Both the position numbers and the translations under genes were made by a program. This document shows positions 7,305 through 19,361 of a DNA stretch of 64,000 nucleotides, in pieces. Under the pieces are notes generated by a model. The model was not told the DNA's origin. It was given only the letters and a program-made list of their open reading frames with translations, and did no database searches. Each line of letters starts with the position of its first letter. Position 1 is the first letter of the stretch. Where the stretch lies: positions 32,001-96,000 of the forward strand of contig CBEUCH010000010.1 in the NCBI GenBank assembly GCA_965541585.1, read 5' to 3'. This stretch comes from an uncultured bacterium. GTDB taxonomy: Bacteria > Zixibacteria > MSB-5A5 > UBA10806.

Positions 7305-7347
7305 TGATTTGCCGCCGCAACAATCGGGGATTTTGAAAGGGCATGGG

Positions 7348-8859
7348 ATGAAAGAGATCAGGCCGTATTTAGTAATAACATCAGCCATAGTCTCGTTTCT
7401 ATGTTTTCCGCCTTTTCCTTTTGGCCCGCTGATTTTTCTGTCTCTAGTGCCTTTACTTCTGGCAATTGAGGATATGCCTCCGTACAGGGCCCTTAAGCTG
7501 GGGTTCCTGTGGGGGATAATATTTTTTCTGGGGCTGATTTACTATATAGCCTGGGTCACTCCTCCCGGAATGTTGGCCGCCGTGCTGATTCTTTCATTTA
7601 TTCCGGCAACCGCCTGCTGGTTTTTCGCCAGGCTTATGGATAGAAACCGGGGGGCGGCCCTGATATTCTTTCCTTCGTATTTTATCATGTGGAATTGGCT
7701 TTTTACCATGTCCGATCTGAATTATCCCTGGGCCGACTTCGGTTATGCGCTGGCTTATTACCTGCCGTTCGTTCAGGCGGCGGAGTTAGGAGCTGTATAT
7801 CTAATATCCCTTATCATCCTGGCTGTTAATGCGGCTATCTACGCCTCGGTGTCGCAGAAGCTCAATCTCTCACAGTATGTGCGAAGAAATTTGCGATATG
7901 GTTCGGTTTTTGTAATTGTTTTGCTTTATGGCTACGGTGTTGTGCGTCTTAATAGTCCTGACAGCGGCGCAGATTCTAAGAAGCTGGCGGTGGGTATTTT
8001 GCAGGGGAACATGACCCGCGGCCAAAAATGGAATCCTAAGAATCTACAGATGAATTTTGAGCGTTATTTCGATCTGTCGCGGAAGGCGGCTTCCGAAGGG
8101 GCGGAGTTTCTTATCTGGCCTGAAACCGCTACGCCCACTTATCTGATGCAGGAAAGAAGATATTTAGGAAATGTTCAGTCTCTGGTTGATTCCCTGGGTG
8201 CGCCGCTTCTGACCGGCACCCCTTACTACAGGGTAGTAGGTCCCCAGGAATATGTTTATTTCAATTCGGCGGTATTGATAACACCGGGCCGGGACGATTA
8301 TCAAGTATATTCCAAAATTCGCCTGGTGCCGGTGAGCGAACATATACCGTTTTCAGGCAGGTTCAAGAAGTTGAAGGAAATCCGTCTCGGACAGGCCGAT
8401 TTTTCAGCGGGTGAGGAGCAAACCATATTCGATCTTAAAGGCTTCAAATTTGCGGCGGTAATCTGTTTCGAGTCGGCTTTTCCCGGTTATTGCCGCGAGT
8501 TCGCTCAGAGAGGAGCTCAATTTCTGGTAGTGATAACAAACGATATGTGGTTCGGCAGGACGTCTCTTCTGGAACAACATGCTATGATGTCGGTGTTCAG
8601 AGCAGTAGAGAACAGAATTCCCGTGGTTCGGTCGGCCAATACCGGGGTATCGATGGCGGTCGATAAATGGGGTAGGATATCAACAAAATCGGATATTTTT
8701 GTACAGGACCACCTGTTGGCTAAAATCGCACCGGAGAATTCAGAGAGCATTTATGGTCGTATCGGAGATATTATTCCGAAGGGAGCGATGATATTGAGCA
8801 TAATATCCTTGGTCGTTGCCTTTCGACGGCGACGGCAGTATAATGGAGAAGTAAGATGA
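7348..8859 (+). CDS. lnt: Apolipoprotein N-acyltransferase
   Basis: Multi-TM N-terminus plus nitrilase domain with the E/K/C triad (WPETA, YSKIRLVP, ICFES), TNDMWFG, RAVENR; ATG 7348 preferred over the TTG at 7309. Confidence 0.95.
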   Translation: MKEIRPYLVITSAIVSFLCFPPFPFGPLIFLSLVPLLLAIEDMPPYRALKLGFLWGIIFFLGLIYYIAWVTPPGMLAAVLILSFIPATACWFFARLMDRNRGAALIFFPSYFIMWNWLFTMSDLNYPWADFGYALAYYLPFVQAAELGAVYLISLIILAVNAAIYASVSQKLNLSQYVRRNLRYGSVFVIVLLYGYGVVRLNSPDSGADSKKLAVGILQGNMTRGQKWNPKNLQMNFERYFDLSRKAASEGAEFLIWPETATPTYLMQERRYLGNVQSLVDSLGAPLLTGTPYYRVVGPQEYVYFNSAVLITPGRDDYQVYSKIRLVPVSEHIPFSGRFKKLKEIRLGQADFSAGEEQTIFDLKGFKFAAVICFESAFPGYCREFAQRGAQFLVVITNDMWFGRTSLLEQHAMMSVFRAVENRIPVVRSANTGVSMAVDKWGRISTKSDIFVQDHLLAKIAPENSESIYGRIGDIIPKGAMILSIISLVVAFRRRRQYNGEVR

Positions 8860-11072
8860 AAACTGTCTGTTTCTTATTAGTGATATTGCCATTGTCTGGT
8901 ACGTATCTGCATTCGCAGACCTGGATGAGCTTCACCAATACCGATAATGTTCGACAGATTGCCATAGAATCGGATCGGGTCTGGGGCGCCACCTCCGGGG
9001 GAGTTGTCGCATTGACCCCGTCCACGGGCGATATACTCAAATTGACGAATACCGACGGCCTGGGAGGCATTGACTTCAATTGTGTGGAGTCCGACACTGC
9101 AGGCAATATCTGGCTTGGCGCCGCTGATGGCTGGCTTAGCCGATATTCGCCTTCCGGAGAGATCACCAACTATCCTGTTACGGAGAGCCAGGAGTTTTTC
9201 GAGAGGGCTATCACAGTATATGATCTTTTCGTTGATGGCGATCGTGTCTGGATGGCCAGCGATCTGGGGGTGAGCAAATTCCTGATGTACTCGAATGACG
9301 GCGAAATCAAGGACACCGCCCGACGACTCGGTGATATCCCGGATGAGGAGGATGTTGTTTGCCTTTCAGTCATAGGAGACTATCTCTGGGCCGGTACCGC
9401 CCGGGGAATTGCCTTCATAGACAAAGATAATGAGAACATTCAGTATTTTGGGTTCTGGCGGTCGTTTCAACAGGGGGAAGATGGTCTGGGAAGCGGAGAT
9501 ATAAGATCGATTGCCGTGTATCACGATACAGTGATTGCGGGGACCCAGGTCGGCGCATATAAATTACAGGTCTCTCCCGATACAAGCTGGTTAGCGTTCG
9601 GTCTTGCCGGCCGCACGATTAACAGTCTGTTGATGACCGATTCTGTGCTCCTGGCCGCGACAGATGGCGGTGTCTTCCAGTACGACGGTTCAAACTGGGT
9701 AGGACTTTCCACCAGTGGTTTGCCTCAATTAAACGTATCGGATATAGAGGTTAACGCATCCGGAGACCTATGGGCAGGCACTCCCTCATCGGGGCTCGCC
9801 AGATTGATAGATACGCTATGGAATGTCTATACTATTCCGGGGCCGGCGTCGAATTTTATAAGGAATATTGCTATAGATTCCAGCGGCGCAATATGGATGA
9901 CCCACGACGGCAGGGGGATCAGCCGGTTCGAGAATAGCTCATGGACAACCTATAATTCTGCGAATTCAGATCCCGATGATTCGGGGCCCCTCGGCGGATT
10001 GGATGATAATGCCTTGCATAGCATCACTGTGGACACAAATAACGATATATGGGCAGGGAGCTGGGGCAGGGGATTGTATCGGTATAGCCGTCAATCTCAA
10101 TCCTGGTTTCACTGGGAAAATTACAATAGCCCCATGGTTGGAGTGCCACGGAATAATGATTATTGGGCGGCGACAGCGATACAGACAGGACAGGATAATA
10201 TTGTCTGGGTATCCTCTATGGGGGCCGACTCCGGCGTGGTGGTGGGAGCCTTCCGACCGGCCGATTCTTTATGGCATGTTTATCACACAGGCCCTAACAC
10301 CGTTCTGGATAACGACGTTACTTCTCTTCAGATACAGGGCAACTCAATCTGGATCGGAATGGTCAATGGTATTCACAGATTGAATTTCAATGGCACATTT
10401 ACCGATGAATCTGATGATAGCTGGCAGAATTATGTTAGCCGGGAATTCATAGTCGATACAGGTCTTGATCCTTTCGGTAATTTATGGTTTGGAGCTTTAA
10501 CGGGTCTTTATAATTCCTCGCCTTCAACAGGAATCACCCGCCGGGTGGATCTTCCTTTGGAAATTTCGGGTGGCGTCAATGCTGTGGCATCGGATGGCGT
10601 CGGCAATATCTGGGTGGGAACCACTTCGGGACTGGGGGTTTACAGACCCAACGCCTCTATCTGGAAGGCGGTTTATAACACATCCAACAGTCCGCTTCTC
10701 AACAACCAGGTTACGGATATCGCCATAGATGTTCAAACCGGCCTGATATATATCGGAACCTCCGGGGGCCTCTCGATCATGGAATCCGGCGTAGAAGCGC
10801 CATCGGAAGATCTCTCTGATGTAGAAGCATATCCCAACCCGGTCGTTGTTGCCGCAGGAGATAACGCGCTCTATTTCAAAAGGGTCCCTGCCGACGCTAC
10901 CATTTCTATATTCAGCGTAGCCGGGGATCTCGTTTATGAACTCGAGCTTTCATTGCAGGACCACTGGGACTTGAAAAACTCAAAGGGCGGATCCGTTGCC
11001 GGAGGTATCTATATTTTCCATGTGAGATCGAAAAATGCCTCGGGCACTGGAAAATTTGCGATCATCAAGTAA
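8856..11072 (+). CDS. PorZ-like double beta-propeller protein with T9SS-type C-terminal domain
   Basis: Signal peptide; many propeller-blade repeats (GNIWLG, GDLWAGT, GAIWMT, GNLWFG, GNIWVGT, LIYIGTSGGL); CTD YPNP...WDLKN...GIYIF...KFAIIK; 738 aa, PorZ-like in size and N-terminus. Confidence 0.75.
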   Translation: MKTVCFLLVILPLSGTYLHSQTWMSFTNTDNVRQIAIESDRVWGATSGGVVALTPSTGDILKLTNTDGLGGIDFNCVESDTAGNIWLGAADGWLSRYSPSGEITNYPVTESQEFFERAITVYDLFVDGDRVWMASDLGVSKFLMYSNDGEIKDTARRLGDIPDEEDVVCLSVIGDYLWAGTARGIAFIDKDNENIQYFGFWRSFQQGEDGLGSGDIRSIAVYHDTVIAGTQVGAYKLQVSPDTSWLAFGLAGRTINSLLMTDSVLLAATDGGVFQYDGSNWVGLSTSGLPQLNVSDIEVNASGDLWAGTPSSGLARLIDTLWNVYTIPGPASNFIRNIAIDSSGAIWMTHDGRGISRFENSSWTTYNSANSDPDDSGPLGGLDDNALHSITVDTNNDIWAGSWGRGLYRYSRQSQSWFHWENYNSPMVGVPRNNDYWAATAIQTGQDNIVWVSSMGADSGVVVGAFRPADSLWHVYHTGPNTVLDNDVTSLQIQGNSIWIGMVNGIHRLNFNGTFTDESDDSWQNYVSREFIVDTGLDPFGNLWFGALTGLYNSSPSTGITRRVDLPLEISGGVNAVASDGVGNIWVGTTSGLGVYRPNASIWKAVYNTSNSPLLNNQVTDIAIDVQTGLIYIGTSGGLSIMESGVEAPSEDLSDVEAYPNPVVVAAGDNALYFKRVPADATISIFSVAGDLVYELELSLQDHWDLKNSKGGSVAGGIYIFHVRSKNASGTGKFAIIK

Positions 11073-12006
11073 AAGAGAAATCACAAAAATCCCGGCGGAT
11101 ATTTCCCAGATCGAAAGTCTCTGGGGAGGTATCTTTTACCACCCTCAATTCGTCGGCATGGCCGCCGAAAATCTAAATTTACGAGGAGAGTCCTGTTTTC
11201 TCCTGTCGGCGGGAAACTCTATCTGTGCACTGAATCTGCTATTACAAAATAGAGATTTGGTGAGGGCGGCCACTATTCCGCTGATGTTTCAATATTTCGG
11301 GCCGCTTTTCTTAGAAGGGGATTCTGAAGCGCGATCGATGGCTGAGGTCGATAGATATCTCTCAGGGGAATGCGATTTCGTCTATTTTAGCTTTTCACCC
11401 GAATTTCAGCCCGCGGCCGGATTCCCGTCGGGTTGGCATGCAAAAAAGGCGGTTACTCTGGCGCTCACCGTCGATGAACTCAGCACCTGGGGCGGTTGTT
11501 TTCGGGATGATGTTAAAAACAAAATCAGAAAAGCAAAAAGGGAGTCGGTTAGGATTGAACAGGCAGAATCTCTTCCCGAAAAATTATGGTCGCTGGCCTA
11601 TACCCGTAGGGGGCTGAAACCTCCACTGGAACCTCGGGCACTGGCGCGATGGTGCGAGAGTCTTATGACGAATTCCATGCTGAGAATTTACATTGCGAAA
11701 ATAGACGGTAACCCTGTCGCTTTCAGAGGACAGCTCTTGCAGGGCGAATTCGCTTATGATTGGATCGCCGGGTCCGATCCGGAATTTCATGCCACAGGAG
11801 CTAATCAACTGCTGATGGCGGAGATCGGGCATGAACTCGCAGGAGGTGGTCTAAAAATATGGGATCTGGTAGGCGGCCAGATCAAAAGTATTGCCGATTT
11901 CAAGAGATCATTCGGGGCGAGAGAGTTTTATCATTATCAGGCTTATAAGAGCTTCAATATAAAAGGCAAAATATTCGGCGTGATGCGGAAGTTGAAAAAT
12001 GCGTAG
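11035..12006 (+). CDS. FemAB-like/GNAT aminoacyl- or acetyltransferase (VimA-like); start uncertain (ATG 11035 or TTG 11056)
   Basis: KNKIRKAKR, GANQLLM, WDLVGG, IADFKRSFGA motifs typical of the Fem/Acetyltransf_6 fold. Confidence 0.75.
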   Translation: MPRALENLRSSSKREITKIPADISQIESLWGGIFYHPQFVGMAAENLNLRGESCFLLSAGNSICALNLLLQNRDLVRAATIPLMFQYFGPLFLEGDSEARSMAEVDRYLSGECDFVYFSFSPEFQPAAGFPSGWHAKKAVTLALTVDELSTWGGCFRDDVKNKIRKAKRESVRIEQAESLPEKLWSLAYTRRGLKPPLEPRALARWCESLMTNSMLRIYIAKIDGNPVAFRGQLLQGEFAYDWIAGSDPEFHATGANQLLMAEIGHELAGGGLKIWDLVGGQIKSIADFKRSFGAREFYHYQAYKSFNIKGKIFGVMRKLKNA

Positions 12007-13318
12007 TGATTTTGAAACAGTCAGATATGGATACGTCAACCATCGATTCAGTGCTTCCGCTATAAAACACACCTTCGCATATCTTTCCGCTGTAACCGGG
12101 ATCAGGTTCAGGCCATCGTTATCGGATGCTGATCTCTGGCGATCCGATGAGAGCCCGGTTCCCGATAGGGCCAGAGTTCTCATAGGTCAACATACAACTC
12201 AACAACAAAGAGAATCTGCCGGCCATTCGGATACTGTATCTTCGCGACTGATATTGAAGGATGATCCGGTCGAGAAGATTATTGAAAAGCTATCACCGGC
12301 GGCCCAAATGGGTCCCTTCTCCGGTATCGAATCGAGGAATCGAAAGCCGGGCGAGCCGAGACTGACCCGTTTGATTTCAGATCTGGTTAAAGCGCTAACC
12401 AGTACGGGCGTAATCTCACGGAAATCCCGTGAAATTGATCTATGGCCTGATGGCAAGCGATTCGCTCTGGCGGTGACGCATGACGTCGATATTGCGTGCC
12501 GGTCTGTGAAGGGGAGCATTCGGCTATTAATGAAACGGATACCGCCGGGTCGGTTCAGAGGATTGTATGATTCGGTTCGATCTTCGATCGGAGACCGGCA
12601 TAACCCTTACGATAGAGTTTCCGAATGGATAAAGATCGAGAACGACCTGGGAATCAAATCCACTTTTTTCATATTCGCCGGCCCGGATCGGCACCAAGAT
12701 GATCCGAAATACAGGCTTGATGAACTCTCGCATTCAATAGAGGATATTCGGCTAAACGGTTTCGAGCTGGCTTTGCATTCCGGGATAAAATGCAATGAAG
12801 GTGATAGCCTGGCCAACTCCAGATCTGAACTTGGAAATCATGCCGGATTAAATATAGCGGGGTTGAGACCGCATTATCTCTCGGCGCATGTCCCGGAGTA
12901 CTGGAGATCGGCCGCCGAATCCGGCTTTTCCCATTCCTCCTGCCTGGGGTTCGATAATGGTATCGGACATTTCGATGGCATCGACCTGCCATTTATTTCC
13001 TTCGACAGGGAAAATGACAGGGCAATTGACATAGTCGAGATCCCTTTTGCCATAATGGACTGCGGTTTAATCCGAGATGAAGCGGCCGATTCCGAGGGAG
13101 TCATTTCACGCGGCGAAGATCTGATCGATAAGACTGCAGAGTCGGGTGGGATGATAGTCCTGGACTGGCATCAAAGAACGCTCTATGATCCGGACTATCC
13201 CGGGTGGGGAAAGTTATTTCGCAAGATAACGGATTATGCTCTGGGGAAGGGAGCCTATTCTGCTACGATGGAGCAGATATCCTCCTTATTGAAAAATCGA
13301 ACAGGGATGGAAGATTGA
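11999..13318 (+). CDS. Polysaccharide/carbohydrate deacetylase (VimE-like)
   Basis: WPDGKRFALAVTHDVD, STFFIF, FELALH, LRPHYL, IPFAIMD, LDWHQ motifs of a NodB-like fold with an N-terminal extension. Confidence 0.75.
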   Translation: MRSDFETVRYGYVNHRFSASAIKHTFAYLSAVTGIRFRPSLSDADLWRSDESPVPDRARVLIGQHTTQQQRESAGHSDTVSSRLILKDDPVEKIIEKLSPAAQMGPFSGIESRNRKPGEPRLTRLISDLVKALTSTGVISRKSREIDLWPDGKRFALAVTHDVDIACRSVKGSIRLLMKRIPPGRFRGLYDSVRSSIGDRHNPYDRVSEWIKIENDLGIKSTFFIFAGPDRHQDDPKYRLDELSHSIEDIRLNGFELALHSGIKCNEGDSLANSRSELGNHAGLNIAGLRPHYLSAHVPEYWRSAAESGFSHSSCLGFDNGIGHFDGIDLPFISFDRENDRAIDIVEIPFAIMDCGLIRDEAADSEGVISRGEDLIDKTAESGGMIVLDWHQRTLYDPDYPGWGKLFRKITDYALGKGAYSATMEQISSLLKNRTGMED

Positions 13319-14436
13319 GGGTAGCGTACTTCATATTAAATCCATTCGATATCGACACGCGGGCCAGGCTGGAGGTCGAAACTATCGGGCGGATGGGGCA
13401 CCAGGTGGATATCATAGTAACCGTGGGAGCCGAGACTAAAGAATTTCTCGGGTATCCGATTCATCGCATAGCTCAATTGACATGGCCGTCTCGAAAGATC
13501 CGTTTCATCCAGTACAATCTCAAGGCGGCGTTGATCGGGATGAGACTGAAAGCCGATATTTATCATGCAGTCGACGTGGATACGCTGGCTGCCGCCTTCT
13601 GGGCGGCCAATAAAACGGGGGGGAAAGTAATCTACGAGGCCAGGGAATTGTATACGGAACTCGAGCCTCTAAGAGGTCGCAATTTAGTTCGATCGTTCTG
13701 GGGCTATCTGGAGAAGCGGTTGATCGGAAAAGCGGCAAGAGTTGTAACAATTAATGATTCCATCGCCGACGAACTTTGCAGAAGATACCGAATCAGGAGG
13801 CCTGATGTCATCAGGAATGTGGCGAAATCTCCAGTCAGTATAATGCCCGTAGATTTGAGGAGGAAATTCGGCATTCCGGATGACCATAAAATAATCGTCT
13901 ACCAGGGCGTTCTCAGGCGCGGTCAGGGGCTCTTATACCAGCTTGATATCCTGCAACATCTGGAAAAAGTGGTGATGCTGTTTATTGGTACAGGACCGAT
14001 TGAAGCCGAATTGAAAGAGAAATCGTCCAGTTTGAACGTTGAGGATAAAGTCATATTCGCCGGCAGGGTCCCTCCCGACGAGCTCTTGAATTATACCGCC
14101 TCTGCCGATGCCGGTATCTTATTGATGGAGGATATCGCCTTGAACAACAGACTGGCTCTTCCTCAAAAGCTGTTTCAGTATTTGAGCTCCGGCATTCCGC
14201 AGGTTGTCTCTCCGATGCCGGAGATATCGCGTTTTGTCGAAGATGAAAATACCGGCGTGGTGGTTTCATTAAGCGATCCGCAGGAAGCAGCCGATATTAT
14301 TGGAGGATTTATTTTTGATGAAGGCTTATATTCTGCGGTCAGGGAGAATTGCCGGAGATCGTCTTTGAAAAACAACTGGGAAACCGAATCGGTAAAGTGG
14401 ATTGAAATATATGAAAACCTGGAATCGTTAGCATGA
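13315..14436 (+). CDS. GT4 (GT-B) glycosyltransferase (VimF-like)
   Basis: TTG 13315 overlaps the upstream TGA; DTRARLE, DIYHAVD, IYEARELY, VYQG, PQKLFQYLSSGIP. Confidence 0.85.
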   Translation: MRVAYFILNPFDIDTRARLEVETIGRMGHQVDIIVTVGAETKEFLGYPIHRIAQLTWPSRKIRFIQYNLKAALIGMRLKADIYHAVDVDTLAAAFWAANKTGGKVIYEARELYTELEPLRGRNLVRSFWGYLEKRLIGKAARVVTINDSIADELCRRYRIRRPDVIRNVAKSPVSIMPVDLRRKFGIPDDHKIIVYQGVLRRGQGLLYQLDILQHLEKVVMLFIGTGPIEAELKEKSSSLNVEDKVIFAGRVPPDELLNYTASADAGILLMEDIALNNRLALPQKLFQYLSSGIPQVVSPMPEISRFVEDENTGVVVSLSDPQEAADIIGGFIFDEGLYSAVRENCRRSSLKNNWETESVKWIEIYENLESLA

Positions 14437-15380
14437 TCAGTTATTCAATTCTGATTGTTACATATAATCAAAAAGAAACGCTCGGGATGTTATTGGACAG
14501 CCTGGCGAAGCAGATTAAGAATCCGAAGATGTTCGAGATTGTCGTTGCCGATGATTGTTCCGACGACGGCACCGAGAGTTTTATTAAACGGTTGCGTTTG
14601 CCGATTTTTTTGAAGTACACACGCGCCGCCAATAATGTCGGCCGATCAATTATCCGCAATATGGGATTTCAAAAAACGGCCGGTCAAAAAGTGATTTTTC
14701 TCGATGGCGATATGGTGCCCGGTTCCGGCTTTATCGATTCCTTTCTCGGTTCCTGGGTCAAGCATCCTTCCGCGGTTATCGTCGCGTCATGGCGCAACCC
14801 ACCTCAATGGGAAAATGACCGTCTGTATAATTATCTTTCATCGCGCGGCAGGCTGGCCGCAAAGTCGGAAGTTCAAATCCCGGGCAAGTATTTTACCAGC
14901 GGCAATTTCTCCATCGATAGAAATGTTTTCGAAAGACTATCGGGTTTCGAGCTTTCATTCGAAGGCTGGAAAGGTGAGGATACGGATTTTGGGCTGCGGC
15001 TGGAAAAGGAGTCGATCCCGATATGGCATAACCCCGATGCTGTATGTTATCATTACCACAGGAAGTCTCTCGAAGGTATGCTGTCAGAATATGAGAGATT
15101 TGGGCGATCCAGCTTTCGAGTGCTGCTCGAAAAGCATCCCGATAGGCTCATTTTTGAAAAAGGCTGGATTCTGGGATTGCCCGATCCGAGAGCCGGGATG
15201 TTGAAGAAAACTGTTTCAAGAGTGCTGTCTCCCTTGCGATCCGATTCCGCCATTTCAATGCTTAAAGCGCTCGAGAGATTTGCCGGCGGCGCCCTATTCT
15301 TTAATATCTGTTACGATTGGCTGTTCTACAGTTGTCTTGCCCGTGGATATCGAGAAGGACGAAATAAACCGCGAAAGTAA
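14433..15380 (+). CDS. GT2 (GT-A) glycosyltransferase
   Basis: SILIVTYN, VVADDCSDDGT, FLDGD (DxD), GFELSFEGWKGEDTDFGLRL. Confidence 0.9.
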   Translation: MISYSILIVTYNQKETLGMLLDSLAKQIKNPKMFEIVVADDCSDDGTESFIKRLRLPIFLKYTRAANNVGRSIIRNMGFQKTAGQKVIFLDGDMVPGSGFIDSFLGSWVKHPSAVIVASWRNPPQWENDRLYNYLSSRGRLAAKSEVQIPGKYFTSGNFSIDRNVFERLSGFELSFEGWKGEDTDFGLRLEKESIPIWHNPDAVCYHYHRKSLEGMLSEYERFGRSSFRVLLEKHPDRLIFEKGWILGLPDPRAGMLKKTVSRVLSPLRSDSAISMLKALERFAGGALFFNICYDWLFYSCLARGYREGRNKPRK

Positions 15381-15404
15381 TCTCTATTTGCTAAAGGATC
15401 TCTG

Positions 15405-16589
15405 ATGAAGCTTCTGGTTGTATCAAGCAGTTTTCCCATGAAAGTGGGCGATGGCTTATCGCCTTTCATCTGGGAATATTGTGTGCATCTAAAGAAGCGC
15501 GGTTGGGATATCACAGCTGTCGTGCCGCATCATAGAGATCTTGAGAGAGAGGAAATCTGGAACGACATAAAAATCATTAGATTTAAGTATCTTCCCCAGG
15601 GGCTCGAAGATATGGCATACTCGGGTGGAATAATACCCGGTATAAGAAAGAAACCGTGGAAAATCATCAAAGTCCCATTTTTCATATATTCGATGTATAA
15701 AGAGACGCTCAGGTTACTGAACAGAAATGATTTTGATCTGATCAATTTTCACTGGCTGTTCCCGGTCTGTTTCTGGCTCGGACGGTTCAGCCGGAAATCA
15801 AACGTGCCCATCGTCCTGACGGCGCATGGAACGGACGTTCGTCTGGCTTTAAAAAAACCGTTCGGCCTGTTTGCAAATAATGGATTGAGAAAATCGGCGG
15901 CTTTGACTTTGAACAGCAGATATATGAAAGGTCTTTTGAAAGAATTTGACCTGCCTGCAAGAACAGAGATAATACCGATGGGAGTTGACACCGAGATATT
16001 TCATCCCGGTTCGCATAAACCGTCCCGATCCAGAAAGATCATTTTCCTGGGGAGATTGATCAAACAAAAGGGGATCGATGTACTACTCGATGCTTTCAGC
16101 AGCGTGTTGGAAGAGATTCCGGAGGCCGAACTCGAGATTATCGGCTATGGCCCTGAAAAAGATAGTCTCGAAAAAAAGGTCAAAGAACTCAGAATGGAGA
16201 ACTCTGCAAGGTTTTGCGGCCGAGTACGTTATGATGAGCTGCCTGAAAGATACCGTAGCGCCAGGGCGCTGGCTTTTCCGTCCGTGACACCCGAAGGATT
16301 GGGGATCAGTGCGGTTGAGGCTGGCGCGTGTGGGGTTCCGACAGTTACATTCGGCCTGGGCGGTACTAAGGAGCTGGTGGTGCACGAGGATACCGGGCTG
16401 GTCGTAGAAAAAAGTAGAGATGCACTTGCCGAAGGCCTCATTAGAATCCTAACCGACGATGATCTCGCCGATCGGCTGGGTGAAAATGCACGCAAAAAAG
16501 TTGCAGAGCAGTATAGCTGGGATGTTATATCAAAGAAATTCAATAGTCTATTCAGAGAGATAATTGGGGAGCCCGTAAAAGGGAAATAG
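15405..16589 (+). CDS. GT4 glycosyltransferase
   Basis: TAHGTDV, IPMGVD, FLGRLIKQKG, EGLGISAVEA (EX7E), YSWD. Confidence 0.92.
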   Translation: MKLLVVSSSFPMKVGDGLSPFIWEYCVHLKKRGWDITAVVPHHRDLEREEIWNDIKIIRFKYLPQGLEDMAYSGGIIPGIRKKPWKIIKVPFFIYSMYKETLRLLNRNDFDLINFHWLFPVCFWLGRFSRKSNVPIVLTAHGTDVRLALKKPFGLFANNGLRKSAALTLNSRYMKGLLKEFDLPARTEIIPMGVDTEIFHPGSHKPSRSRKIIFLGRLIKQKGIDVLLDAFSSVLEEIPEAELEIIGYGPEKDSLEKKVKELRMENSARFCGRVRYDELPERYRSARALAFPSVTPEGLGISAVEAGACGVPTVTFGLGGTKELVVHEDTGLVVEKSRDALAEGLIRILTDDDLADRLGENARKKVAEQYSWDVISKKFNSLFREIIGEPVKGK

Positions 16590-16691: not shown

Positions 16692-19106
16692 CTATTTTAT
16701 AATAGTCATCTGTCTGATAGAGACCGTTGGTCCGGAGGTAAACTTGTAGAAATAAATGCCGCTTGTGATATTCCTTCCGGCATCGTTTTTTCCATCCCAT
16801 AAAAGCTGATTTAGACCAGCAGGAAATTCCTTAGAAGCCAGGTTCTTAACCAGCCGACCCCTGATATCGTAAATCTTAAGATCAACCCTACTCCGTTCGG
16901 AAAGATCAAACTCTATTGTGGTAGAGGAGTTGAAGGGATTGGGGAAGTTCTGATATACGATCGGGCTTTCAGGCAATATCTCCTCATCGTCGACGTCCGC
17001 TGGAGATCCTATTATGGCTGTTACCTGGGCCGGAATATACCTCTGTTTGGTCGCTGTGACGGTCATAAATCCTTCAGCCAGCGGTTCGATATCGAAACGG
17101 ACGCGGCCGGCGTTATCGGTGATGTCAACCTCGAATAATTCACCCGGCATATACAGACAGACCCTTGCCCCGGACAGATGATCGTTGCCGTCGAATACCC
17201 GGTATTGCAGTTGCTGCGGCCCGCCGAACTCGATCTCGGTCGGACCCTCCACCCGGAGGTTGCCATCCACAGAAAGCCATAACGCCATCTCCGGATCACC
17301 AAAGAGATTGTGCCCGTATCCGATGTCCCGGTAGTTGGGGTAATCGATTTTCGATAGAGCCTCGGCCACCGAGAGCCTGCTGGTGGAATCGTTGAGGACA
17401 TGGGTTATAAATCTCCTTTCCAGATTGTATGAGGATGAAACCCATCCCCAGCGGGTATTGCCGAGGAAAGCCACCCCTGCGCCTGGCTCGATCATATACG
17501 ACTCTGCAAAACAGTAGGGGCTGATATACGGTGGCGGTCGAAATATACCTGTATCGAAATCCAGAGAGGCGAGAGCGCAACTTATGGAGTAATGGACAGC
17601 CGGCTGGTCATAGGTCGTCAGGTGGCTCAATGCTCCACAGCCATTCCAGGCAACCGTGTCTCCCCAGACTCCCGAATAGCCGTAGTTATTATATTGAGTA
17701 CTTTTCGCTGTGTACCACGAGTAATCGCCATGGTTGAGATTCGAAATGAATCCCCATCCTTCCTGCATGACTTCAATCACGTATTCCCCGGTCGGGCTGG
17801 TCGGTGCAGGATCGTTTCCACTGGGTTCCTCGATCAGGCGGCTGGCATCGGTGATGAAGTTATCGGGCATCATATCTGCCAGGACATTGTGTTGACCCAG
17901 ATCACGCATCTGATCGGCACAAATAAACAGCGCCTTGGTCAGATACGATGGATCGCCATTTCCCGGATTCTTCTCATATATGATTGCCTTGTTGCCCCAG
18001 ATGGATGCATGTTCAGCGGTCCAGGCAGGTACTCTGCCAACATATAATTCCGGATAGATGTCAGGCTGATCCTGATACGATTCGCCCCAGACACCATCGC
18101 CGTCAGCGTCCCAATCACCGGTGAGATCAGCGAAATAGAGATCGGATATATGTTGCACATCCAGCTCAGGATGATTGTTGCTGACATTACCAGGATACAG
18201 ATAACGAATGGGGACAACATCATCGCTACCGCCCAGGAGAACATACTGGACACCCTCGCTGTAAGCCTGAATAAGGTAATTCCTTAGTTGTTCGGCGGGA
18301 TCGATCCCGGCGGTGCTGGCCAGGATGTCCTCGATCAAAACCATATCCGTGGGTAATCCCTTCTGATTCTTCCAGACAAGGAATGGATAAAATCCCGGGG
18401 CTATTTCGCCCGATGTGATTATCAGATATTGCGGTGCGGGGATGTTGCCCAATACTATCGGCGGGCCATCCGCTGGCGGCGAGGCCATCAACGGAAAATC
18501 AATCTGGTTGCTCACCATTCCCATTAACGCTCCATATGCATTTGGATCGCTTTTGATTATTAAAGCACTCCTATTGGATCTGGACCGGAGGCTGAGATGA
18601 ACGGTAATTTCCGGATAAAACAGGATCCTCCCCGAAAGCGGCTTATAACCTATCGGGTAAACCGCCAGATCCGCGACATGGATATCACCCCAGTTGCCGG
18701 AGCCCAATAGCCTCACACGCTCTGCCGGAAAAACCTGGTCGGACTCATAGATTAATGGATCGGGGAAGGATGCCGTGTCAGCGGGATAGTTGCCAGGTCT
18801 GAGATCGCCCCTGATGAAATCGACCTCGGCTGTTCCGATTATCAGGGAGTCGGGAATTTCATAGCTTAAATCGGCTACCTCGGTATTGGGAGGCAGGGCC
18901 AGCTTTATAATCCGATATTCCAGAGCCGGCGCGCCCGGAGAAGCAATCATTTCGCCGCCGTCAATTGATACCTTCCCGTCTACCAGGTCGACAGTGCTTC
19001 GGTCTGTAACCACCGTATAGATGTATTCGTCGCTGGCCACGGCTAAACTGCCCATGCTATAGGCAGTTAGCAACATTATCAGTATTCTATCTGAGATCAT
19101 TTTCAT
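16692..19106 (-). CDS. Gingipain-like C25 cysteine peptidase with propeptide and T9SS/FlgD-type CTD
   Basis: Signal peptide and propeptide; YLIIT, YVLLGG, SDLYFADL, ELYVGRVP; His (NLNHG) and Cys (SISCA) dyad; NLFGDPEM; CTD NFPNPFN...WDG...SGIYFY...MTIIK; ATG 19106 follows GGAGGGG. Confidence 0.9.
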   Translation of the reverse strand: MKMISDRILIMLLTAYSMGSLAVASDEYIYTVVTDRSTVDLVDGKVSIDGGEMIASPGAPALEYRIIKLALPPNTEVADLSYEIPDSLIIGTAEVDFIRGDLRPGNYPADTASFPDPLIYESDQVFPAERVRLLGSGNWGDIHVADLAVYPIGYKPLSGRILFYPEITVHLSLRSRSNRSALIIKSDPNAYGALMGMVSNQIDFPLMASPPADGPPIVLGNIPAPQYLIITSGEIAPGFYPFLVWKNQKGLPTDMVLIEDILASTAGIDPAEQLRNYLIQAYSEGVQYVLLGGSDDVVPIRYLYPGNVSNNHPELDVQHISDLYFADLTGDWDADGDGVWGESYQDQPDIYPELYVGRVPAWTAEHASIWGNKAIIYEKNPGNGDPSYLTKALFICADQMRDLGQHNVLADMMPDNFITDASRLIEEPSGNDPAPTSPTGEYVIEVMQEGWGFISNLNHGDYSWYTAKSTQYNNYGYSGVWGDTVAWNGCGALSHLTTYDQPAVHYSISCALASLDFDTGIFRPPPYISPYCFAESYMIEPGAGVAFLGNTRWGWVSSSYNLERRFITHVLNDSTSRLSVAEALSKIDYPNYRDIGYGHNLFGDPEMALWLSVDGNLRVEGPTEIEFGGPQQLQYRVFDGNDHLSGARVCLYMPGELFEVDITDNAGRVRFDIEPLAEGFMTVTATKQRYIPAQVTAIIGSPADVDDEEILPESPIVYQNFPNPFNSSTTIEFDLSERSRVDLKIYDIRGRLVKNLASKEFPAGLNQLLWDGKNDAGRNITSGIYFYKFTSGPTVSIRQMTIIK

Positions 19107-19361
19107 TATTTCCCCTCCGGAAATAGTGATCATTTCAAAAACTCGTAAAGGTGTTCAGCAACGCTGATGCCATGGCCGTTTTAAGGTGATCCGGATTGGA
19201 ACGGCGTTATAACGTATTCATTCATAAAAGGATACACAGAGCGTTAAGGTGCTCCCCACCATATAATGAGACCTCTGATAGGCCGATCTATGGGATTGCC
19301 TCCATACTTGTCGTTGTATCGCTATATCTTCTAACAAAATACGGATTGAGAGTTTTTTTGC

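What the first reader, a model, noticed from the sequence alone, without database searches (positions are those of the whole stretch)
8856..16589. Candidate T9SS cargo-anchoring module: PorZ-like plus VimA/VimE/VimF-like plus GT2 and GT4
Seen: six co-oriented genes with overlapping or near-abutting ends. They encode a double-propeller protein with a T9SS-type CTD, a Fem-like GNAT transferase, a NodB-like deacetylase, GT4, GT2 and GT4. Known: in Porphyromonas gingivalis, PorZ delivers A-LPS to the sortase PorU. The vimA-vimE-vimF genes (Fem/GNAT transferase, deacetylase, glycosyltransferase, in that order) of the Wbp/Vim pathway build the aminoacylated linking sugar to which T9SS cargo is transpeptidated, and porZ is not part of that operon. 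Inference: the same three activities in the same order, directly behind a PorZ-like gene, suggest a compact locus that makes and presents the linker for covalent surface anchoring of CTD proteins. The host appears not to be Bacteroidota, given its TTGACA/TATAAT-type promoters and SD sequences. Two further CTD proteins and lptFG in the window are consistent with this. Orthology is inferred from motifs and gene order only.
Basis: partly seen in the sequence, partly recalled or inferred. Interest (0 to 1): 0.85.

Follow-up and report, generated by a model that had tools for sequence, protein, structure and literature searches.

The report
Sugar-linker genes for secreted-protein anchoring
In an uncultured Zixibacteria bacterium, the gene for a surface protein that presents a sugar anchor to secreted proteins sits beside genes that probably build an amino-acid-tipped sugar, a pairing kept across the phylum that suggests a protein-tethering chemistry so far shown only in oral bacteria is much more widespread.

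Summary
The six genes are real and tightly packed. The host is a Zixibacteria bacterium with PorU, SprA, PorV-family genes, lipid A genes and about 49 CTD proteins. The propeller protein behaves as the PorZ orthologue. The GNAT folds like aminoacyl-tRNA-dependent amino-sugar amide synthases. GNAT and deacetylase are the genome's only matches to VimA and VimE profiles, but weak ones that fall outside both clades. The 'VimF-like' label fails: GT4a belongs to another GT4 subfamily, and the VimF-clade gene lies on another contig. The stronger result is phylum-wide. A Fem-like GNAT lies directly behind porZ in 75 of 80 related loci, while the sugar genes after it come in exchanged sets (deacetylase in 12 of 80, VimF-clade GT4 in 66 of 80). 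Best reading (0.68): a porZ-linked cassette makes an aminoacyl-sugar cap that PorU joins to cargo; it works like the Vim pathway but is not a vimAEF orthologue set. No chemistry is shown, gene order here is generally conserved, and PorM/PorN were not detected. The scan noted this idea before on another genome (e1-923532). Five literature searches found no report.

The parts
7309..8859 (+). lnt, apolipoprotein N-acyltransferase; context gene overlapping the porZ start, probably the housekeeping Lnt (single copy)
   Evidence: TIGR00546 310.9 bits, cut-off 132.9; no paralogue in the genome; upstream of porZ in 76 of 80 related loci
8856..11072 (+). PorZ orthologue: two-propeller protein with T9SS type A CTD (738 aa)
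   Evidence: NF052228 176.8 bits over 3-736 (cut-off 260), PF21544 29.5/27, TIGR04183 26.1/23; profile's top PDB hit is PorZ 5m11 in one full-length stretch; best hit in this genome for 5 of 5 over-cut-off Bacteroidota PorZ
11035..12006 (+). Fem-type double-GNAT transferase, predicted aminoacyl-tRNA-dependent amino-sugar amide synthase (VimA-related); true start may lie a little downstream
   Evidence: PF13480; AF2 model pLDDT 90 matches FemX and Sba18/Sbb17; profile's best PDB hits are 9wqy/9wqw with the FK motif aligned; only hit of a VimA profile in the genome, 25.7 bits; K290 invariant in 70 of 70 Zixibacteria porZ-linked GNATs
11999..13318 (+). CE4-type sugar N-deacetylase, VimE-related
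   Evidence: only NCBIfam hit is NF053580 VimE, 61.9 bits, cut-off 440; D162, D164, H260, R290, H292, H391 invariant in 21 aligned homologues; only real hit of a VimE profile in the genome; outside the VimE clade
13315..14436 (+). GT4a glycosyltransferase; not VimF; same subfamily as the GT4 found behind vimE in some other Bacteroidales
   Evidence: Pfam GT4; no hit by the VimF profile at E<1; separate clade from VimF; this subfamily lies behind vimE in 9 of 20 loci of another Bacteroidales family
14433..15380 (+). GT2 glycosyltransferase
   Evidence: PF00535; this subfamily follows GT4a in 10 of 80 loci; related GT2 follows vimE-GT4 in several Bacteroidales loci at 81-92 bits
15405..16589 (+). 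GT4b glycosyltransferase, accessory
   Evidence: Pfam GT4; absent from the 5 loci of the sister family f2
16692..19133 (-). convergent gingipain-family (C25) peptidase with propeptide and CTD; context gene, itself T9SS cargo
   Evidence: PF01364, PF08126, PF18962; H468 and C519 invariant in 29 aligned sequences, full-length homologue in 68 fetched loci

Best explanation
The locus makes and presents the acceptor for T9SS sortase anchoring in Zixibacteria. In the cytoplasm the CE4 deacetylase frees an amine on an N-acetylated nucleotide sugar, probably a di-N-acetyl sugar from the wbp-like cluster on contig C9 (inferred). The Fem-type GNAT amide-links an amino acid from aminoacyl-tRNA to that amine (fold and motif shown, activity inferred). 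GT4a, GT2 and GT4b assemble this cap on a lipid-linked oligosaccharide that ends up on LPS or another outer-membrane glycolipid (inferred). PorZ, exported by its own CTD, binds the capped glycan and hands it to PorU, which cuts the CTD of cargo and joins the new C-terminus to the amino acid's free amine (known in P. gingivalis; inferred here from orthology). It works like the Wbp/Vim pathway but is a lineage-specific version: the invariant is porZ followed by a Fem-type GNAT, and the sugar-modifying and transferring genes are exchangeable.
For: The attachment machinery is present: PorU 687 bits (cut-off 420) with a His838/Cys873 pair and a PorV-family gene next to it, SprA over cut-off, 49 of 51 PorU-model matches to the CTD region only; PorU over cut-off in 147 of 151 phylum genomes. 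PorZ orthology. A Fem-like GNAT lies within 1.8 kb behind porZ in 75 of 80 fetched relatives and matches the profile in 147 of 151 genomes. The GNATs of the two cassette types fall on opposite sides of a tree split, so the slot was refilled with a different GNAT and still holds one. The majority cassette carries a VimF-clade GT4 (66 of 80) and the minority a VimE-related deacetylase (12 of 80), so both are drawn from Vim-type parts. In family f16, where no GNAT follows porZ, a Fem GNAT sits in a nucleotide-sugar cluster with a DegT aminotransferase in 3 of 3 regions fetched, directly behind it in 2. VimA and VimE profiles pick the window genes and not the exosortase-locus enzymes. Fold match to aminoacyl-tRNA amino-sugar amide synthases.
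Against: No biochemical, proteomic or expression data. gpmI, lnt, the C25 peptidase and mraZ are about as conserved in position as the cassette, so slow rearrangement alone could hold genes beside porZ. vimA/vimE-like pairs occur in polysaccharide clusters of bacteria without T9SS (PMC7468200, discussion). Scores to VimA (25.7 bits) and VimE (62-67 bits) are weak, and many other Bacteroidota deacetylases score higher (76 of 301 genomes above about 107 bits). GT4a is not VimF. The C9 dehydrogenase is not a WbpB orthologue; its close homologues also occur in many genomes without the deacetylase cassette, and none was found at E<=1e-45 in one genome that has it (G118). The GNAT tree split had support 55 with all 80 rows and 99/96 only after 10 rows were dropped, and the group was defined after seeing the first tree. 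PorM and PorN were not detected, so the secretion system differs from the studied one. The 80 loci were picked by me from 150 related genomes, which are not independent.
Confidence: 0.68

Rival explanations
1. The genes make a general surface glycan (O-antigen, capsule or protein glycan) bearing an aminoacylated sugar, unrelated to cargo anchoring. They sit behind porZ only because this stretch between gpmI-lnt and the dcw cluster rarely rearranges.
For: Housekeeping neighbours are as stable as the cassette (lnt upstream in 76 of 80; C25 in 68 loci). GT-C (PMT_2) genes accompany 14 of 80 cassettes. vimA/vimE-like pairs occur in non-T9SS bacteria (PMC7468200). GT4a-type enzymes also occur in phyla without T9SS, such as Chloroflexota.
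Against: The cassette content was exchanged, yet a Fem GNAT is kept first (75 of 80; two tree sides). Variable polysaccharide genes of this genome lie elsewhere. The cassette is near-universal in the phylum, like PorU.
Confidence: 0.18
2. The locus is a true vimA-vimE-vimF orthologue set and makes the same 2-N-seryl/glycyl-3-N-acetyl-uronic linker as P. gingivalis or T. forsythia.
For: Same order GNAT-deacetylase-GT4. VimA and VimE profiles hit only these genes. hhalign 99.7% and 99.8%. A dehydrogenase-acetyltransferase-aminotransferase-2-epimerase cluster and two NDP-sugar dehydrogenases exist in the genome. A split between Zixibacteria and Bacteroidota sequences is also what old orthologues would show.
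Against: GT4a is outside the VimF clade. VimA has Phe in 19 of 19 sequences where these GNATs have Lys290 in 70 of 70. VimE score 62 against a cut-off of 440. No WbpB orthologue.
Confidence: 0.09
3. GNAT and deacetylase serve the genome's exosortase (PEP-CTERM-type) system or peptidoglycan, not the T9SS.
For: The genome has an exosortase over cut-off. One type-B GNAT matches TIGR03019 at 84 bits, below cut-off. The fold is shared with FemX.
Against: The exosortase locus on C2 has its own two Fem-like GNATs, a deacetylase and two Asn-synthase-type genes. The window GNAT has no NCBIfam hit at E<=0.01, TIGR03019 included. It is tied to porZ and glycosyltransferases.
Confidence: 0.05

Closest known systems
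Wbp/Vim linking-sugar pathway and vimA-vimE-vimF operon of Porphyromonas gingivalis and Tannerella forsythia (PMC7468200, PMC13086638)
   Same: Fem-like GNAT plus CE4 deacetylase plus GT4 in that order; VimA and VimE profiles hit only these genes in the genome; PorU, PorZ, PorV-family, SprA and lipid A genes are present.
   Different: [quoted passage not shown] GT4a is not VimF. The GNAT keeps the Fem lysine that VimA lacks. No WbpB orthologue. The deacetylase is missing from most Zixibacteria cassettes.
PorZ / T9SS attachment complex PorU-PorV-PorQ-PorZ (PMC8545088; PDB 5m11)
   Same: Full-length two-propeller plus CTD match, single copy, best hit for 5 of 5 Bacteroidota PorZ; PorU over cut-off with PorV-family gene adjacent.
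   Different: Below the NCBIfam PorZ cut-off (176.8 of 260); glycan binding untested; PorM and PorN not detected; no PorV or PorQ equivalog assigned among the PorV-family genes.
N-alanyl-deoxyhexose linker of Prevotella intermedia (PMC11969387)
   Same: Shows that PorU anchoring can use an aminoacyl sugar made without VimA/VimE/WbpB/WbpD, as the majority Zixibacteria cassette without deacetylase would.
   Different: Its genes are unknown; P. intermedia itself was not examined here.
Aminoacyl-tRNA-dependent amino-sugar amide synthases Sba18/Sbb17/Orf11 and FemX (PDB 9wqy, 9wqw, 1ne9; PMC12945691)
   Same: Best structural and profile matches of the GNAT; double-GNAT fold, basic helix and FK motif aligned.
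   Different: These make streptothricin-type antibiotics or peptidoglycan bridges; identity is about 16%.
PEP-CTERM/exosortase EPS loci with FemAB-like proteins (TIGR03019)
   Same: Fem-like GNAT, deacetylase and glycosyltransferases clustered with a sorting enzyme.
   Different: This genome has such a locus separately on C2 with other GNATs; the window genes do not match TIGR03019.

Membership tests
PorZ | two beta-propellers plus type A CTD, matching PorZ over the full length | tested here: met
   NF052228 over 3-736, PF21544, TIGR04183; 5m11 top hit in one stretch 28-735
PorZ | NCBIfam equivalog cut-off 260 bits | tested here: not met
   176.8 bits
PorZ | best-hit orthology, single copy, co-occurrence with PorU | tested here: met
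   best hit in this genome for 5 of 5 over-cut-off PorZ; no full-length paralogue; PorU over cut-off in 147 of 151 genomes
PorZ | binds the anchor glycan and PorU | not testable with these tools
   needs binding assays as in PMC8545088
VimA | Fem-like GNAT directly upstream of a VimE-type deacetylase | tested here: met
VimA | falls inside the VimA clade and shares its residues | tested here: not met
   on the VimA side of a split but outside the clade; 25.7 bits to the VimA profile; Lys290 against Phe in 19 of 19 VimA
VimA | adds Ser or Gly to the linker sugar | not testable with these tools
   needs an enzyme assay or cargo mass spectrometry
VimE | CE4 deacetylase of the VimE-like family with intact metal and catalytic motifs | tested here: met
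   only NCBIfam hit is NF053580; invariant Asp, His and Arg columns; calling them CE4 motifs rests on recalled knowledge
VimE | cut-off 440 bits or position inside the VimE clade | tested here: not met
   61.9 bits; 0 of 151 phylum genomes over cut-off; outside the clade
VimF | GT4 of the subfamily encoded behind vimE in Porphyromonas-type operons | tested here: not met
   that subfamily follows vimE in 19 of 28 loci and GT4a in 0 of 28; VimF profile does not hit GT4a at E<1, best hit is C4:77017; hhalign 91% against 99.9% for the type-B GT4; tree
Wbp pathway (WbpA/B/E/D, WbpI or WbpS) | enzymes for a 2,3-di-N-acetyl hexuronic acid in the genome | tested here: inconclusive
   C9 cluster with WbpE-like aminotransferase (348 bits to PDB WbpE), acetyltransferase and 2-epimerase over cut-off; two NDP-sugar dehydrogenases; dehydrogenase is not a WbpB orthologue
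T9SS | SprA translocon, PorV family, PorU sortase, CTD cargo | tested here: met
T9SS | PorL/M motor and PorK/N ring | tested here: not met
   GldM model 0 of 15 Zixibacteria, 3 of 7 other genomes; GldN model none in this genome, with no positive control; 13 ORFs from three gldM loci gave no BLAST hit at E<0.05; GldK not searched; remote homologues could be missed
T9SS | PorP, PorT, PorW, PorE, PorF, PorG, Plug | not tested
Exosortase-associated FemAB-like (TIGR03019) | match to TIGR03019 and location in the exosortase EPS locus | tested here: not met
   no NCBIfam hit at E<=0.01; the exosortase locus is on C2 with other GNATs

The most novel reading that the evidence does not exclude
Zixibacteria carry a phylum-wide, porZ-coupled 'linker cassette' whose fixed part is an aminoacyl-tRNA-dependent transferase and whose sugar part is exchangeable: either a deacetylase frees the amine (this order) or an aminotransferase supplies it (most others). 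Aminoacyl-sugar capping would then be an old, general rule of PorU anchoring in the FCB group. The deacetylase-free GNAT type would be the missing enzyme class for linkers such as the N-alanyl sugar of P. intermedia. The system would run without a recognisable PorL/M/N motor and ring.
Probability: 0.4. Interest if true: 0.82.

Novelty: new variant of a known kind. Interest (0 to 1): 0.62.

Why it matters
Covalent anchoring of T9SS cargo has been worked out chemically in three oral Bacteroidota, and in one of them the linker pathway is unknown (PMC11969387). A cassette physically tied to porZ across a whole uncultured phylum gives a guilt-by-association handle on linker biosynthesis. It names a testable donor (aminoacyl-tRNA), predicts two routes to the acceptor amine, and offers candidate genes for non-Vim linkers. 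It also extends the PorU/PorZ attachment system to Zixibacteria, apparently without detectable PorM/PorN, which bears on how the T9SS evolved and how these sediment bacteria display their many secreted enzymes.

Tried and rejected
A single-sequence AlphaFold model of the PorZ-like protein was useless (pLDDT 34.6) and was not used. The sigma-70 promoter scan was at chance level. My first 'VimF' profile, built from genes behind vimE in one Bacteroidales family, picked GT4a at 148 bits; I rejected it as a VimF test after Porphyromonas-type operons showed a different GT4 subfamily of the published 47 kDa size. The genes upstream of vimE in that family were not GNATs, so the 'vimA' profile was discarded. 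The order of G151 proved small and held no VimE over cut-off. The deacetylase alignment was too diverse for a locus scan. The C9 dehydrogenase as WbpB was not supported. The C7 Gfo gene lies between lpxA and lpxB and probably serves lipid A. Motif searches for waaA and kdsA found nothing and are uninformative. No RNA holder was listed for the locus. A look-up of earlier findings by GNAT sequence gave nothing. No complex prediction was run. Supplementary Fig. S7 of PMC7468200 (gene maps of vimA/vimE homologues) was not seen and may bear on how unusual the arrangement is.
Full report
Observation. The six ORFs are present, co-oriented and overlapping or nearly abutting. GT4a most likely starts at TTG 13315, where its homologues start. 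The run continues upstream: lnt overlaps the porZ start codon. Pfam and NCBIfam confirm the domain labels, the two further CTD proteins and lptF/lptG-like genes. The promoter argument is at chance level, 29 sites against 25.2 +/- 4.8. GC content of the cassette genes (0.47-0.50) is close to the window's 0.50.

Host and secretion system. The closest homologues that carry names are Zixibacteria; NCBI places the phylum in the FCB group. The genome is 98% complete. It holds PorU over cut-off (687 of 420 bits) with a His838/Cys873 pair, a PorV-family gene directly behind it, SprA over cut-off, 8 PorV-family matches over cut-off, and 49 of 51 PorU-model matches confined to the CTD region. Reading His838/Cys873 as the catalytic pair rests on recalled C25 motifs. 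lpxA and lpxB are present. PorU is over cut-off in 147 of 151 phylum genomes. GldM was found in 0 of 15 Zixibacteria and 3 of 7 other genomes. GldN was not found in this genome, though no control rang, and 13 ORFs from three gldM loci gave no BLAST hit. GldK, PorP, PorT and PorW were not searched.

PorZ. The protein matches NF052228 from residue 3 to 736 but below cut-off. As a single sequence it scores two hybrid-sensor propellers above PorZ in the PDB, on short stretches. As a 16-sequence profile its top hit is PorZ 5m11 in one full-length stretch. It is the best hit in this genome for 5 of 5 over-cut-off PorZ proteins from Bacteroidota-side genomes. All 151 phylum genomes have some match (a CTD alone can match), and all 80 regions that I fetched hold a strong one. 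I treat it as the PorZ orthologue.

GNAT. The AF2 model (pLDDT 90) matches FemX and the aminoacyl-tRNA-dependent synthases Sba18/Sbb17, solved with the amino sugar streptothrisamine. A profile search ranks the same enzymes first and aligns the FK motif. A review describes this lysine in FemX and DhpH (PMC12945691, passages); equating it with K290 is my inference. K290 is invariant in 70 of 70 Zixibacteria porZ-linked GNATs, while 19 of 19 VimA-type sequences have Phe there. I call them Porphyromonas-type from gene order and from a 47.4 kDa GT4 that fits the published VimF size. Their VimA profile hits only the window GNAT in this genome, at 25.7 bits. The genome's two other long Fem-like GNATs lie in an exosortase locus on C2. 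In trees the window GNAT is outside the VimA clade but on its side of a split from the type-B GNATs. Support was 55 with all 80 rows and 99/96 after dropping 5 long-branch or odd rows and 5 near-duplicates, with the group defined after the first tree.

Deacetylase. Its only NCBIfam hit is VimE, at 62 of 440 bits, and it is the only real hit of my VimE profile in the genome. Asp, His and Arg columns typical of CE4 enzymes are invariant in 21 homologues. It groups with other Zixibacteria enzymes outside the VimE clade, which fits either an old orthologue or a paralogue. VimE-like matches occur in 46 of 151 phylum genomes, none over cut-off, and in 76 of 301 sampled Bacteroidota at higher scores than the window's.

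Glycosyltransferases. In Porphyromonas-type loci the gene behind vimE belongs to a subfamily that I call GT4y (19 of 28 loci; GT4a 0 of 28). Its profile does not hit GT4a at E<1; the best hit is C4:77017 behind a Wzx flippase. The tree puts GT4a in another clade. GT4a is still a plausible occupant of the slot: in another Bacteroidales family it follows vimE in 9 of 20 loci and GT4y does so in 8 of 20, often with a GT2 next. GT4b is missing in the 5 loci of the sister family.

Synteny. I fetched 80 porZ regions, chosen from 150 relatives to cover families and long contigs. A Fem-like GNAT lies within 1.8 kb behind porZ in 75 of 80; the 5 misses are all family f16. Two main cassettes follow. Type A, as in the window, is GNAT-deacetylase-GT4a-GT2, often with a GT-C gene (deacetylase in 12 of 80). 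Type B is GNAT-GT4x-GT4y, mostly with a different GT2 (GT4y in 66 of 80); 2 loci are hybrids. Part of the first 20 loci trained the profiles; 60 did not. The GNAT profile matches 147 of 151 genomes, and 2 of the 4 misses do have the gene behind porZ. In f16 a Fem GNAT sits instead in a nucleotide-sugar cluster with a DegT aminotransferase in 3 of 3 regions fetched, directly behind it in 2. In 0 of 5 Bacteroidota-side porZ loci was such a neighbour seen within 1.5 kb. Against over-reading this: lnt lies upstream in 76 of 80 and the C25 peptidase and mraZ follow in most loci, so the region rearranges slowly.

Sugar supply. Contig C9 has a cluster of Gfo dehydrogenase, hexapeptide acetyltransferase, DegT aminotransferase, non-hydrolysing 2-epimerase and GT4. 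The aminotransferase scores 348 bits to PDB WbpE, second to 7b0d. Two NDP-sugar dehydrogenases are over cut-off. The dehydrogenase is not a WbpB orthologue by the tests run. Close homologues of it (52% identity or more) occur in 64 of 151 genomes by my count of the table, including many type-B genomes, and none was found in type-A genome G118. A diamino sugar is therefore plausible, not shown.

Mechanism. Known from papers: cargo C-termini are amide-bonded to a seryl or glycyl di-amino uronic sugar, with VimE proposed to remove an acetyl group and VimA to add the amino acid (PMC7468200: abstract, parts 1 and 6 of 9, passages). The sugar caps a pentasaccharide on O-LPS, with VimF proposed as its transferase (PMC13086638: abstract and first part of the discussion). 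PorZ binds A-LPS and PorU (PMC8545088, passages). P. intermedia uses N-alanyl-deoxyhexose without VimA/VimE, by an unknown route (PMC11969387, discussion). Shown here: the machinery, the folds and motifs, and the linkage. Inferred: deacetylation frees an amine, the GNAT adds an amino acid from tRNA, the transferases build the cap on a lipid-linked glycan, PorZ presents it and PorU joins cargo to it. Type-B lineages would take the amine from an aminotransferase instead. I give this 0.68, a general surface glycan held by gene-order inertia 0.18, strict vimAEF orthology 0.09 and service to the exosortase or cell wall 0.05.

Novelty. 'Type IX secretion' with 'Zixibacteria' gave 0 papers. Four broader searches listed nothing on a T9SS or linker cassette in this phylum (listings only). 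A review places the T9SS in the Fibrobacteres-Bacteroidetes-Chlorobi group without naming other phyla in the passages seen (PMC11205867). The operon order of the vim genes comes from passages of PMC8003790 and PMC3663753. The library lacks most subscription papers, and NCBI's own models already label PorU and SprA in these genomes. The scan reached a similar reading earlier on another genome (e1-923532); I had stated my reading before that look-up, and it is not independent evidence. Verdict: real, a new variant of a known kind, right in outline and wrong on VimF. Interest 0.62.

Noticed in passing
window 16692-19133 (minus): A gingipain-family C25 peptidase with CTD faces the cassette; a full-length homologue is present in 68 fetched loci with invariant His468/Cys519. 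Its fixed place suggests a role in cargo processing, perhaps as a second transpeptidase.
   Followed up: partly
whole genome G000 and 14 relatives: SprA, PorU, PorZ and PorV-family genes are present, but GldM/PorM was found in 0 of 15 Zixibacteria and also in 0 of 4 other non-Bacteroidales FCB genomes; GldN was not found in G000.
   Followed up: partly
G000, several contigs: The PorV/PorQ family is expanded: 8 matches over cut-off among 20 rows. The one next to porU is 863 aa, with a long insert after its first residues.
   Followed up: no
L093:9471-12418 (G000:C4): The genome's VimF-clade GT4 sits behind a Wzx-type flippase and beside a GT-C gene, away from porZ; it may complete the same pathway.
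   Followed up: partly
L101:1558-14279 (G000:C9): Wza-like, chain-length, Gfo dehydrogenase, acetyltransferase, aminotransferase, 2-epimerase, GT4, an XrtA-type deacetylase over cut-off and a WecA-like gene form one cluster; the second deacetylase could compete for the VimE role.
   Followed up: partly
L094-L095 (G000:C2): An exosortase/EpsI locus with two Fem-like GNATs, two Asn-synthase-type genes, a deacetylase, a flippase and a Wzy_C protein; a simple pattern found only one PEP-CTERM-like ORF.
   Followed up: partly
L412 (G000:C7): lpxC-like, lpxA, a Gfo dehydrogenase and lpxB in a row; the dehydrogenase may be GnnA, which would mean a diamino lipid A (label recalled).
   Followed up: no
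L244, L254: In Bacteroidales, GNATs on the type-B side of the tree lie next to DegT aminotransferases and GT4 genes: candidates for non-Vim linker synthesis.
   Followed up: partly
L362, L363: Two genomes of one genus have a hybrid cassette GNAT-GT4a-VimF-clade GT4-GT2 without deacetylase, and one has a 1380-aa PorZ.
   Followed up: no
L049, L140, L385: In families f14 and f17 a 237-251 aa gene lies between porZ and the GNAT; the one scanned is a methyltransferase. The P. intermedia linker is partly methylated.
   Followed up: no
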